A stretch of DNA of 42,043 nt, from the NCBI GenBank assembly GCA_947628885.1, contig CANRBO010000001.1, positions 1 to 42,043 on the forward strand. The letters are read 5' to 3'. Positions within the stretch are counted from its first letter, which is position 1, and every line of letters starts with the position of its first letter. This stretch comes from an uncultured Clostridia bacterium. GTDB taxonomy: Bacteria; Bacillota; Clostridia; TANB77; CAG-508. Position numbers and translations under genes: made by a program. This document shows, one piece after another, positions 40,386-41,606 of the stretch. Below the pieces are notes generated by a model. It was not told the DNA's origin. It was given only the letters and a program-made list of their open reading frames with translations, and ran no database searches.

Positions 40386-41606
40386 ATGTCTTTTTCAAAA
40401 GACAAGAAAGGATTCAAAATTATGAAAAATTTAAAAAGAAATGTTAATGGTATTACTCTTATTGCATTAGTTGTAACAATAATAATACTATTAATACTAG
40501 CAGGGGTAACATTAACTATTGCCTTGGGAGAAAATGGCTTATTTAAAATGGCTCGCGATTCAGGAGAAGCTACCAAAGATGTATCAGAAGAAGAAAAAGT
40601 AAAACTTACTGTAAGTAGCGCTTTTATTGATGGTGCTGGTACGCTTTCAACTGAGAAATTAAAAAAATCATTTACAAATGAATTTGGAGAAGATAAAGTA
40701 ACAGATACTACTTTTACAGGAGAAGGTCCTTGGATATATGAAGGAGAAAGGAAAAATTATAAAATAGAAACAACTGGAAAAATTACGGGAACAGCAAAAG
40801 GAAGCCAAGAAGGGACAGGAACAGGAAAAACAGTTGGCGAGTTATATGATGGAGTAAATAAACCAGACGAAGAAAATTATAATGAGGATGCAATGCACAT
40901 AGGAGATTATGTAGATTATGATGCAGGAAATTGGGATACAACAGTAAATGCACCAACATCAGCAAATCCATTCACATTTGGAGGATACACAGCTGGGCAA
41001 AGCAGAAATACAAATGCAACAGGAGGAAGTGCAGAAACTGGAAAATATGAAGGATGGAGAATATGGGATGTGTCAGAAGATGAAAGCACAGTTACATTAA
41101 TATCAGCAGGATGTCCAGAGCTATATTATCATCAAGATGGTACTAATTATGCCTATAATTCAGAACAAATATTGACAGGAGAAAAAAAGACAGGGACTTT
41201 AGCTGCTGGTCAACCATCTAACCCAAGAAATTGGAATTCTGATTATGTACAAGGAAATGCAACTAGTGCGAGAGCAATGAAAAAAAGTGATTTAGACGAA
41301 TGGTATGGAAAATATATTGATAGTGAAATAACAGATTCGTATAAAATATCTAGGTTTCCAGAAAATACAGCTAATAAGTTAATATCAGTAGTTGAAAATG
41401 GAATGAATTACTGGCTTTGCTCTGCTTATGACAACAGCGACTTGTATTGCGTGAGCCTTGGTTTACGTAAGGTGGCCCACGGCAACCGTGGTGGGCGAGG
41501 GGTGCGTGTCTTAGTTTCTCTAGAATCTGGAGTCAAATTTATTGAAACACCAGCAAAAAAAGACCAAATTGATGGATTTGAATATAACAATTGGAGTATA
41601 GAGTAA
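40386..41606 (+). CDS. Pilin-like N-terminus plus lectin-like C-terminus surface protein, copy 2
   Basis: The N-terminus is RNVNG|ITLIALVVTIIILLILAGVTL..LGENGL. The C-terminus is YWLCS...GVRVLVSL. A likely alternative start is the ATG at 40422 (MKNLKRNVNG). Confidence 0.8.
   Translation: MSFSKDKKGFKIMKNLKRNVNGITLIALVVTIIILLILAGVTLTIALGENGLFKMARDSGEATKDVSEEEKVKLTVSSAFIDGAGTLSTEKLKKSFTNEFGEDKVTDTTFTGEGPWIYEGERKNYKIETTGKITGTAKGSQEGTGTGKTVGELYDGVNKPDEENYNEDAMHIGDYVDYDAGNWDTTVNAPTSANPFTFGGYTAGQSRNTNATGGSAETGKYEGWRIWDVSEDESTVTLISAGCPELYYHQDGTNYAYNSEQILTGEKKTGTLAAGQPSNPRNWNSDYVQGNATSARAMKKSDLDEWYGKYIDSEITDSYKISRFPENTANKLISVVENGMNYWLCSAYDNSDLYCVSLGLRKVAHGNRGGRGVRVLVSLESGVKFIETPAKKDQIDGFEYNNWSIE

What the first reader, a model, noticed from the sequence alone, without database searches (positions are those of the whole stretch)
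41409..41522. Anomalously GC-rich patch of CGN/NNC codons in the lectin-like C-terminus of pilin-like gene 2, resembling a DGR variable region
Over 41431-41510 I count 48 G+C in 80 nt (about 60%), in a window that is visibly about 70% A+T or more. All four Arg codons in the patch are CGT or CGA, whereas elsewhere in the gene Arg is AGA. Many codons are NNC: GAC AAC AGC GAC .. TGC .. AGC .. GCC CAC GGC AAC.

The encoded segment is YWLCSAYDNSDLYCVSLGLRKVAHGNRGGRGVRVLVSL. It has the YW.sS ... G.R.V frame of DUF1566/C-type-lectin-fold domains.

It is established that DGR variable regions sit at the C-termini of such folds, and that adenine-specific mutagenesis of AAC-rich templates yields NNC codons and A-depleted, GC-enriched VRs. 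By eye I found no template repeat or reverse transcriptase in this window, so the diversifying element would have to lie elsewhere in the genome.
Basis: partly seen in the sequence, partly recalled or inferred. Interest (0 to 1): 0.65.

Follow-up and report, generated by a model that had tools for sequence, protein, structure and literature searches.

The report
Orphan DGR variable region in pilin-like gene
The GC-rich patch is the variable region of a gene family that retroelement (DGR) hypermutation systems rewrite in related gut Clostridia, but this copy has no template or reverse transcriptase in reach and looks frozen, so it is a new example of a known mechanism.

Summary
Window 41431-41510 has 48 G+C in 80 nt, the highest of any 80-nt stretch in a 29% GC window. 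Its Arg codons are CGT/CGA, against AGA/AGG in almost all of the rest of the gene.

The DGR reading is right about origin. [quoted passage not shown] That TR differs from its own variable region (VR) at 24 adenines and at one other base in the variable part. The window patch aligns with that TR codon for codon and carries the VR-type 3' end. Its composition matches 26 bona fide VRs of this RT clade. Across homologues, variation is confined to this segment.

Present-day activity is not supported. The window has no TR, RT or Avd. The only related TR found mismatches the patch at 14 non-adenine sites. An identical patch sits in a second MAG whose flanks differ by 2.4%. A third paralogue shares derived states with the patch. 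That MAG's RT lacks its first ~83 residues.

Verdict: a DGR variable region by descent, probably frozen. It is a new member of a known kind.

The parts
40422..41606 (+). Pilin-like DGR-target-family gene (394 aa counted from the Met at 40422). An upstream in-frame ATG at 40386 would give 406 aa. The end coordinate includes the stop codon.
   Evidence: ORF list. 3450 homologues at E<=1e-3. The family alignment is conserved except in the VR. AF2 model has mean pLDDT 88.
40449..40520 (+). N-terminal type-IV-pilin-like segment: G|ITLIALVVTIIILLILAGVTL, a hydrophobic helix with Ala rather than Glu at +5.
   Evidence: Pfam N_methyl scores 16.5 bits, below the 21.2 cut-off (27 of 72 family members match at E<=0.01). 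The family profile hits type IV pilin PilE1 (8pfb) at E=0.0011. The AF2 model has a long N-terminal helix, residues 9-35.
41412..41498 (+). VR body: the segment that aligns with the mutagenised part of the template repeat of the paralogous DGR (TGGCTTTGCTCTGC ... CGA).
   Evidence: Codon-for-codon alignment with the L005 TR: 21 of 33 TR adenines differ against 14 of 75 non-adenines, Fisher p=1e-5. It is the hypervariable block of alignment A1. The VR as a whole (41412-41530) has GC 0.54 and A 0.16, like verified VRs.
41499..41533 (+). GC-rich invariant 3' end of the VR, IMH-like: GGGGTGCGTGTCTTAGTTTCTCTAGAATCTGGAGTC.
   Evidence: GGGGTGCGTG is invariant in all 7 sequences of alignment A2, including the TR. 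The VR-type ...TAGTTTCTCTA contrasts with the TR-type ...TAGCTTCTATA, and this contrast recurs in many TR/VR pairs of the RT clade. The window has the VR type, with one C>T change at 41511 relative to L005.
41688..41750 (+). Remnant of a pilin-like N-terminus (HYIIILLILAGISIAMLIGER, then a stop) where L005 carries the DGR cassette.
   Evidence: Translation. The same remnant is present in L001. In L005 the target gene is instead followed by MSL, Avd, TR and RT.
41855..42043 (-). 3' end of a Mob_Pre (plasmid recombination/relaxase) gene, convergent with the pilin-like gene and running off the window.
   Evidence: 97% identity over 63 aa to the L008 ORF, which hits Pfam Mob_Pre at 4.7e-21. The contigs behind L001 and L008 also end inside or just beyond this gene.
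645..1865 (-). Paralogous pilin-like gene 1, with its own VR-like GC-rich patch (about 716-871).
   Evidence: Pfam DUF6273, E=4.8e-5, 23.7 bits against a 23.5 cut-off. GC peak 42/80. Homologues are hypervariable only between GYWLASPSA and G[LV]RP[LV]VCL. hhalign against the gene-2 family gives probability 99.8.

Best explanation
The patch is the variable region (VR) of a gene from a family of pilin-like, C-type-lectin-like (DUF6273-type) surface proteins. Diversity-generating retroelements rewrite this family in gut Clostridia.

In that mechanism, a template repeat (TR) is transcribed and then reverse-transcribed with random misincorporation opposite template adenines. The resulting cDNA replaces the VR up to a GC-rich 3' homing sequence.

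- Residues that must stay fixed are encoded in the TR by codons without adenine (CGN for Arg rather than AGA; GGG/GGC/GGT, GTG, GTC, TGG, CTT). This raises TR GC to about 0.44 in genomes of about 0.27.
- AAC/AAT codons become NNC/NNT in the VR. This removes adenines and raises VR GC to about 0.53.

Shown here: the homology to a verified VR, the composition match, and the family-wide hypervariability.

Inferred: this particular copy was written by such a DGR in the past. It is now an orphan copy that has not been rewritten for some time. Its downstream cassette is replaced by a pilin remnant and a Mob_Pre element. It has since changed only by ordinary point mutation and recombination.
For: 1. 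Verified DGR next to a paralogue. P0004 (67% identical) in MAG Lapin-008__bin60 is followed by a MutS_I-like ORF, bAvd and an RVT_1 ORF. Its TR (L005 12048-12166) differs from its own VR at 24 adenines. Only 1 non-adenine differs in the variable part, plus 3 in the tail after the GC-rich homing sequence. The RT carries the IGxxxSQ and YQDD motifs.

2. The window patch aligns with that TR without gaps. 21 of 33 adenines differ against 14 of 75 other bases (p=1e-5).

3. Family alignment. Everything is conserved except the block between YWLxSA and GVRxLVSL.

4. Composition. In most family loci the VR-equivalents have GC 0.47-0.59 against locus GC 0.27-0.32; a few members have ordinary GC. The 26 TR/VR pairs of the same RT clade average genome 0.27, TR 0.44 and VR 0.53 for GC, and TR 0.31 and VR 0.17 for A. 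The window VR has GC 0.54 and A 0.16.

5. The VR-type 3' signature TAGTTTCTCTA is present.

6. Fold. Foldseek hits DUF6273 and DUF1566 phage proteins (best E=5.6e-4, probability 0.99). DUF6273 is a published C-lectin-like DGR target domain with the VR at its C-terminus (PMC11792537, PMC10743442).

7. Evidence that this copy is frozen.
- No TR, RT or Avd in the window.
- No cognate TR in the genome, metagenome or viral collections.
- The VR is identical in L001, although 24 of 993 flanking bases differ.
- The window VR and the L007 VR share GGC AAY CGY GGT GGR. This includes a non-adenine change (GCG>GGR) and synonymous third-position differences, which a fresh rewrite would have erased.
- The RT of the only linked cassette lacks the first ~83 residues found in the full-length homologues examined.
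- Decayed cassettes and GC-normal ex-VRs exist elsewhere in the family.
Against: The rest of the source genome cannot be read. The window appears to be a whole 42-kb contig and none of its close relatives is in the collections. A trans-acting DGR with a diverged TR therefore cannot be excluded.

The non-adenine divergence of the window VR from the L005 TR is similar to the divergence of the flanks between the two paralogues: third positions differ at 25% in the VR body against 15-24% in the flanks. That pattern would also fit a separate TR that co-diverged with this copy.

Most family members lack a DGR within 10 kb yet differ strongly in the VR, so remote targeting seems common in this family.

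Curated DGR sets include targets with up to 11 non-A-to-N differences (PMC5758913).

Identity between only two MAGs is weak evidence of inactivity. From the 2.4% flank divergence, only about 3 ordinary substitutions would be expected in 119 nt.

The PDB fold matches to C-type lectins are not significant (best E=0.16).
Confidence: 0.7

Rival explanations
1. The patch is an active remote target. A DGR elsewhere in the same genome (MSL-Avd-TR plus RT, as in L005 but with a diverged TR) still rewrites it in trans, and perhaps also rewrites paralogous pilin-like genes.
For: Remote targets are documented for non-phage DGRs (PMC5758913, read). 28 of the 29 family loci have no TR or RT within the 10-kb flanks, yet their VRs differ mostly at first and second codon positions, for example L002 against L020 in one MAG. 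The window VR keeps an intact VR-type 3' end and a 'fresh' composition, with most third positions still C. Its non-adenine distance to the L005 TR is about the same as the divergence of the paralogues' flanks.
Against: No such TR was found in any collection, including the MAG that carries the identical VR. The VR is identical between two MAGs. It shares derived states with L007. The codons TTA, AAG and CGA at variable positions would need AAA/AAG template codons, which could mutate to stop codons and which I expect DGR templates to avoid (my own reasoning, not tested here). The linked RT is truncated.
Confidence: 0.22
2. The hypervariability and GC-richness come from ordinary diversifying selection and recombination among paralogous pilin-like genes, with no retroelement involved for this lineage.
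For: The gene is clearly mosaic. Window against L001 shows 57% nucleotide identity in the N-terminal third and 99-100% in the last 145 codons. A Mob_Pre element and a pilin remnant lie directly downstream. There are four paralogues in one MAG.
Against: Selection alone does not explain an A-depleted, 54% GC block in a 29% GC genome, or CGN codons for fixed arginines. It also does not explain the gap-free alignment with an AAC-rich TR whose adenines coincide with the variable sites (p=1e-5), or the shared VR-type 3' signature of this DGR clade.
Confidence: 0.05
3. The patch is just a conserved Gly/Arg-rich structural motif, or a segment transferred from a GC-rich donor.
For: The last part of the patch (GVRVLVSL) is a conserved structural motif. 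The 3' half of the gene has moved between lineages.
Against: The GC-rich part is the least conserved part of the protein, not a conserved motif. The same compositional step is seen in every lineage of the family and in unrelated VRs of the RT clade. The transferred 3' half has ordinary AT-rich composition outside the patch.
Confidence: 0.03

Closest known systems
DGR variable regions in C-type-lectin-fold target proteins (Bordetella phage BPP-1 Mtd; Treponema denticola TvpA; Legionella LdtA)
   Same: The VR lies near the C-terminus of a lectin-like domain. The template is AAC/AAT-rich. Mismatches fall at template adenines (shown for the paralogue). The VR ends in a GC-rich invariant 3' segment. 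An Avd accessory gene is present in the paralogue's cassette.
   Different: Here the VR is about 95 nt upstream of the stop codon, not at the very end of the gene. This copy has no TR or RT in cis. The closest TR is incompatible at 14 non-adenine sites.
DUF6273-domain DGR targets of gut phages (Faecalibacterium prophages, PMC11792537; tentaclins and tgt2 proteins, PMC10743442)
   Same: The C-terminal domain is of the same type: hhalign links it to the DUF6273-positive gene-1 family and Foldseek hits DUF6273 proteins. In both, the VR maps to the C-terminal end of that domain.
   Different: Those are phage tail or receptor-binding proteins. This is a chromosomal protein with a type-IV-pilin-like N-terminus, set among sporulation and cell-shape genes. 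Pfam DUF6273 does not hit gene 2 directly.
MSL-containing DGR cassettes ('Architecture D' of Wu et al. 2018, PMC5758913)
   Same: The paralogue's cassette has a small MutS_I-like ORF plus Avd upstream of the TR.
   Different: In this clade the RT often lies on the opposite strand, convergent with the TR. The window itself has none of these genes.
Remote (non-adjacent) DGR targets, e.g. the seven extra targets of the Treponema DGR (PMC5758913)
   Same: This is a paralogous target gene lying far from any cassette, and several paralogues occur per genome.
   Different: Accepted remote targets differ from the TR only at adenines, with minor exceptions. This copy does not, so it does not qualify against the only TR available.
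DGR-diversified pilus tip adhesins of Bacteroides type V pili (bioRxiv 10.1101/2024.11.15.621889, abstract seen)
   Same: The idea is the same: a DGR diversifies the adhesive module of a pilus subunit in a gut bacterium.
   Different: The pilus system differs (type-IV-pilin-like N-terminus in Firmicutes against type V pili in Bacteroidota). Pilus assembly of this protein is untested.

Membership tests
DGR variable region (active target) | A template repeat exists that differs from the VR only, or almost only, at template adenines | tested here: not met
   No repeat in the window. The closest TR found (L005) differs at 21 of 33 adenines but also at 14 of 75 other bases. No better TR was found in the genome, metagenome or viral scans. 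The source genome beyond this contig could not be searched.
DGR variable region (active target) | A DGR-type reverse transcriptase (IGxxxSQ motif) is present in the same genome | not testable with these tools
   No RT in the window. The rest of the source genome is not available. The related MAG has one, but it lacks its first ~83 residues.
DGR variable region (active target) | Sequence variation between strains or reads is confined to the VR | tested here: not met
   The only near-identical copy (L001) has 0 differences in 119 nt of VR, while 24 of 993 surrounding bases differ. No read data were available.
DGR target family (VR by descent) | Homology of the segment to the VR of a target with a verified TR/VR pair and cassette | tested here: met
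   P0004/L005: the TR and VR differ at 24 adenines and at 1 other base in the variable part, with Avd, MSL and RT adjacent. The window segment aligns with it without gaps.
DGR target family (VR by descent) | Family-wide hypervariability restricted to the segment, at positions matching TR adenines | tested here: met
   Alignments A1 and A3 and the codon table. Fisher tests of adenine against non-adenine mismatches give p from 6e-3 down to 8e-13 for 9 of the 11 VRs compared.
DGR target family (VR by descent) | GC-rich invariant 3' end (IMH-like) that differs from the TR's 3' end | tested here: met
   GGGGTGCGTGTC followed by the VR-type TAGTTTCTCTA, against the TR-type TAGCTTCTATA. There is one C>T change at 41511. 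Function was not tested.
DGR target family (VR by descent) | A-depleted, GC-enriched composition with adenine-free codons at fixed residues | tested here: met
   GC 0.54 and A 0.16, against means of 0.53 and 0.17 for 26 verified VRs. Arg is CGT/CGA in the patch.
C-type-lectin-like DGR scaffold (DUF6273 / DUF1566) | Sequence or structural match of the C-terminal domain to DUF6273, DUF1566 or a C-type-lectin fold | tested here: inconclusive
   Pfam gives no hit for gene 2; 3 of 72 family members hit DUF6273. hhalign to the DUF6273-positive gene-1 family gives probability 99.8. Foldseek against BFVD finds DUF6273 at E=5.6e-4, probability 0.99, with DUF1566 hits as well. PDB hits to the Lcl C-terminal domain and snake C-type lectins have E>=0.16.
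Type IV pilin / pseudopilin | Class III signal peptide with a G|(F/I)TL(I/L)E methylation motif and a hydrophobic N-terminal helix | tested here: inconclusive
   N_methyl scores 16.5 bits, below the 21.2 cut-off. The family profile hits PilE1 at E=0.0011. The helix is modelled. Position +5 is Ala, not Glu. To my knowledge (not tested here), tip minor pilins such as GspK also lack Glu5.
Type IV pilin / pseudopilin | Genomic association with a prepilin peptidase and assembly ATPase/platform genes | tested here: not met
   None of the window's ORFs of 100 aa or more matches PilB/C/D-type families. The rest of the genome is not available.

The most novel reading that the evidence does not exclude
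The family may represent modular type-IV-pilin-like tip adhesins of gut Clostridia whose lectin-like module is diversified by a chromosomal DGR acting in trans on several paralogous genes. That DGR would have MSL and Avd accessory genes and an RT convergent with the TR. Under this reading the window copy, and gene 1 at 645-1865, are still live remote targets of a TR elsewhere in the genome. That would make this a multi-target, DGR-driven adhesin repertoire in a Gram-positive spore-former. I found no paper in the searched library that mentions both DGRs and type IV pilins. One survey lists a G-type pilin domain among rare VR-bearing domains (PMC11661182).
Probability: 0.2. Interest if true: 0.55.

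Novelty: new member of a known kind. Interest (0 to 1): 0.38.

Why it matters
This shows that a compositional anomaly visible by eye can flag a DGR variable region even when the retroelement is absent from the contig. The anomaly here is a 54-60% GC, adenine-poor block with CGN arginines in a 29% GC genome.

It adds a chromosomal, pilin-like protein family from gut Clostridia to the list of DGR targets. That family has several paralogues per genome.

It also illustrates the afterlife of such targets. The copies form a gradient from freshly written VRs to decayed, AT-normalised ones, alongside truncated or lost cassettes.

For annotation, the main lesson is caution: looking like a VR does not show that a gene is currently being hypermutated.

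Tried and rejected
- Exact-protein look-ups of the gene, with either start codon, found nothing. MreB found only a 1.2-kb contig. The source genome could therefore not be reconstructed.
- Anchor-pattern scans for a cognate TR found only the Lapin-008 MAG sites in the genome collection. They found nothing in the metagenome contigs or the viral contigs.
- In 41 family loci, within the flanks fetched (up to 10 kb), only L005 has a TR. L041 has a decayed MSL/Avd pair without a TR.
- Of the TRs recovered from the 39 RT-clade loci, only the L005 TR aligns with the window VR over its full length; L063 and L050 give only short partial matches.
- NCBIfam gave no hit for either pilin-like protein.
- The PDB sequence-profile search hit only the pilin N-terminus.
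- Foldseek of the full-length model against the PDB gave no significant hit. I did not re-model the C-terminal domain alone.
- Rfam and tRNA scans of the window found nothing.
- Rejected: an L005 RT broken by an inversion. The convergent RT orientation recurs across the clade. The 5' truncation, however, is found only in L005, with a partial truncation in L044.

Full report
**1.

Window 41431-41510 contains 48 G+C in 80 nt. This is the highest value of any 80-nt stretch in the window (mean 23.5, sd 5.1; overall GC 29.3%). AT skew there falls to -0.37, so adenine is depleted. The patch lies in an ORF at 40386/40422-41606 on the plus strand. Its four Arg codons are CGT, CGT, CGA and CGT. The eight Arg codons elsewhere in the gene are AGA (five), AGG (two) and CGC (one). 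No copy of the patch occurs elsewhere in the window. The other pilin-like gene (645-1865, minus strand) has a weaker GC peak at the same place in its protein (716-871).

**2. Context**

The window is ordinary chromosomal DNA of a spore-forming member of the Clostridia. It encodes SpoIIE, MreB/C/D, MinC, a PBP, RadC, MecA, PcrA, an ACP synthase and four giant DUF11/SdrD_B surface proteins. None of its ORFs of 100 aa or more is an RT or an Avd, and tblastn with the L005 RT, Avd and MSL proteins finds nothing in the window.

Downstream of the gene lie two features:
- a 21-codon remnant of another pilin N-terminus (41688-41750);
- the 3' end of a convergent Mob_Pre relaxase gene that runs off the window (41855-42043).

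The protein has a type-IV-pilin-like N-terminus. Pfam N_methyl scores below its cut-off, and the family profile hits PilE1 at E=0.0011. Position +5 is Ala rather than Glu.

**3. The family and its hypervariable block**

A protein search returned 3450 relatives at E<=1e-3. In an alignment of 23 of them, the whole protein is well conserved except for one block. Its residues are mostly D, Y, H, N, S, G, C, F, A and V.

In most family loci, the DNA of this block has GC 0.47-0.59 in loci of GC 0.27-0.32. A few members have ordinary GC (0.31-0.38) and look decayed.

**4. A verified DGR next to a paralogue**

P0004 is 67% identical to the window protein. It lies in the rabbit-gut MAG Lapin-008__bin60 and is followed by three ORFs: a MutS_I-like ORF, bAvd and an RVT_1 ORF.

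Between Avd and the RT lies a 119-nt repeat of the gene's variable block. It is AAC-rich. It differs from the gene copy at 24 adenines, at one other base in the variable part, and at three bases in the tail after the GC-rich 3' segment. The RT has IGAMTSQ and YQDD motifs. This is a bona fide TR/VR pair.

MSL accessory genes and cassette components on different strands are already described for DGRs (PMC5758913).

**5. The window patch against that TR**

The patch aligns with the TR without gaps. 21 of 33 TR adenines differ, against 14 of 75 other bases (Fisher p=1e-5). So the patch clearly belongs to this TR lineage, but it is not a product of this exact TR.

The 3' end of the patch is GGGGTGCGTGTC followed by TTAGTTTCTCTA. 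This is the VR-type signature. The TR-type signature is TAGCTTCTATA, and the same VR/TR contrast recurs in many TR/VR pairs of this RT clade.

**6. Why the patch is GC-rich**

I recovered 26 TR/VR pairs with adenine-biased mismatches from 39 loci of the same RT clade. Their average composition is:

| Sequence | GC | A |
|---|---|---|
| Genome | 0.27 | not measured |
| TR | 0.44 | 0.31 |
| VR | 0.53 | 0.17 |
| Window VR | 0.54 | 0.16 |

(All values.)

The mechanism follows from established DGR biology:
- Fixed residues must be encoded without adenine in the TR. This explains CGN rather than AGA for Arg, and the use of GGG/GGC, GTG and GTC.
- AAC/AAT codons become NNC/NNT in the VR.

**7. Fold**

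The AF2 model has mean pLDDT 88. Foldseek against BFVD hits DUF6273 proteins (best E=5.6e-4, probability 0.99) and DUF1566 proteins. Hits against the PDB are weak (Lcl C-terminal domain E=0.16; snake C-type lectins E about 1).

The gene-1 family passes the Pfam DUF6273 threshold. It is homologous to the gene-2 family, with hhalign probability 99.8. DUF6273 is published as a C-lectin-like DGR target domain with the VR at its C-terminus (PMC11792537, PMC10743442).

**8. Is this copy still being rewritten? Probably not**

- (a) No cognate TR was found anywhere I could search. This includes the MAG that holds an identical copy of the patch (L001).
- (b) The window and L001 differ at 24 of 993 bases around the patch, but at none of the 235 bases from 41407 to 41641.
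- (c) The window VR and the VR of a third paralogue (L007) share the string GGC AAY CGY GGT GGR. This includes a non-adenine change (GCG>GGR), and the two differ at synonymous third positions. That pattern indicates descent from one already-mutagenised VR followed by ordinary drift.
- (d) The RT in L005 lacks the first ~83 residues that the full-length homologues examined in the clade have.
- (e) The cassette position downstream of the window gene is occupied by a pilin remnant and a Mob_Pre element. Another family locus shows a decayed MSL/Avd pair.

The gene is also mosaic. Against L001, nucleotide identity is 57% in the N-terminal third and 99-100% in the last 145 codons.

**9. Caveats**

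- The rest of the source genome is unreachable.
- Most family members lack a DGR within 10 kb but still vary in the VR, so remote targeting may be the rule in this family.
- The window VR's non-adenine distance to the L005 TR is about equal to the divergence of the paralogues' flanks. That would also fit a TR of its own that diverged along with it.
- I therefore leave about 0.2 probability for an active remote target.

**10. Verdict**

The DGR interpretation is right as to origin and mechanism of the composition, and unsupported as to current activity. This is a new member of a known kind: an orphan DGR variable region in a pilin-like, DUF6273-type protein of a gut Clostridia bacterium. It is of moderate interest.

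Noticed in passing
window 645-1865 (-), patch about 716-871: A second pilin-like gene with a DUF6273 hit and its own GC-rich, CGT-Arg patch. Its homologues are hypervariable only between GYWLASPSA and G[LV]RP[LV]VCL, so it looks like a second DGR-type variable region. No TR for it occurs in the window.
   Followed up: partly
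window 2742-2925 and 29422-29605 (inverted copy, 88%); partial third copy at 2985-3034: An intergenic repeat of about 184 nt with a GC-rich core (…CAACCGGAGCGTTAGCGTAGGGCGAATGAAGCAAATTTCATACAAGCGC…), present in three places. There is no Rfam match, and its nature is unknown (small RNA or miniature mobile element?).
   Followed up: partly
window 41688-41750 (+): A remnant of a pilin-like N-terminus (HYIIILLILAGISIAMLIGER, then a stop) just downstream of gene 2. It is also present in L001 and is evidence of past rearrangement among pilin-like genes.
   Followed up: yes
window 41855-42043 (-); L008 11275-12189; L001 1-190: A Mob_Pre relaxase-like gene lies convergent with the pilin-like gene. The window, L001 and L008 contigs all end in or just beyond it. 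The 3' half of the pilin gene plus this flank is 97.6% identical between the window and L001, while the 5' part of the gene is only 57% identical. This suggests exchange of the segment by a mobilisable element.
   Followed up: partly
L005 12343-13041 (-), and RT-clade loci L043-L068: In this DGR clade the RT is often encoded on the opposite strand, convergent with the TR, and the MSL and Avd genes lie upstream of the TR. The Lapin-008 RT lacks the ~83 N-terminal residues present in homologues, yet its TR/VR pair is still almost purely adenine-mismatched.
   Followed up: partly
window 29677-30321 (+): An Asn-rich low-complexity ORF made of degenerate 9- and 15-nt AAT/AAC/AGT repeats. It has no Pfam hit. 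It is AAC-rich, but it does not match either VR-like patch (no such repeat pair).
   Followed up: no
window 8514-29077 (-): Four very large paralogous surface-protein genes (1211-1711 aa; three of them carry DUF11, SdrD_B or SpaA-like domains and one has no Pfam hit) share 73-75% identical DNA segments about 10 kb apart. Similar giant genes flank the homologue P0008 in L002.
   Followed up: no
L041 1317-4600: An 866-aa pilin-like protein with the same C-terminal domain is followed by a frameshifted MSL and a truncated Avd, with no TR. This is a decayed DGR cassette next to a family member.
   Followed up: partly
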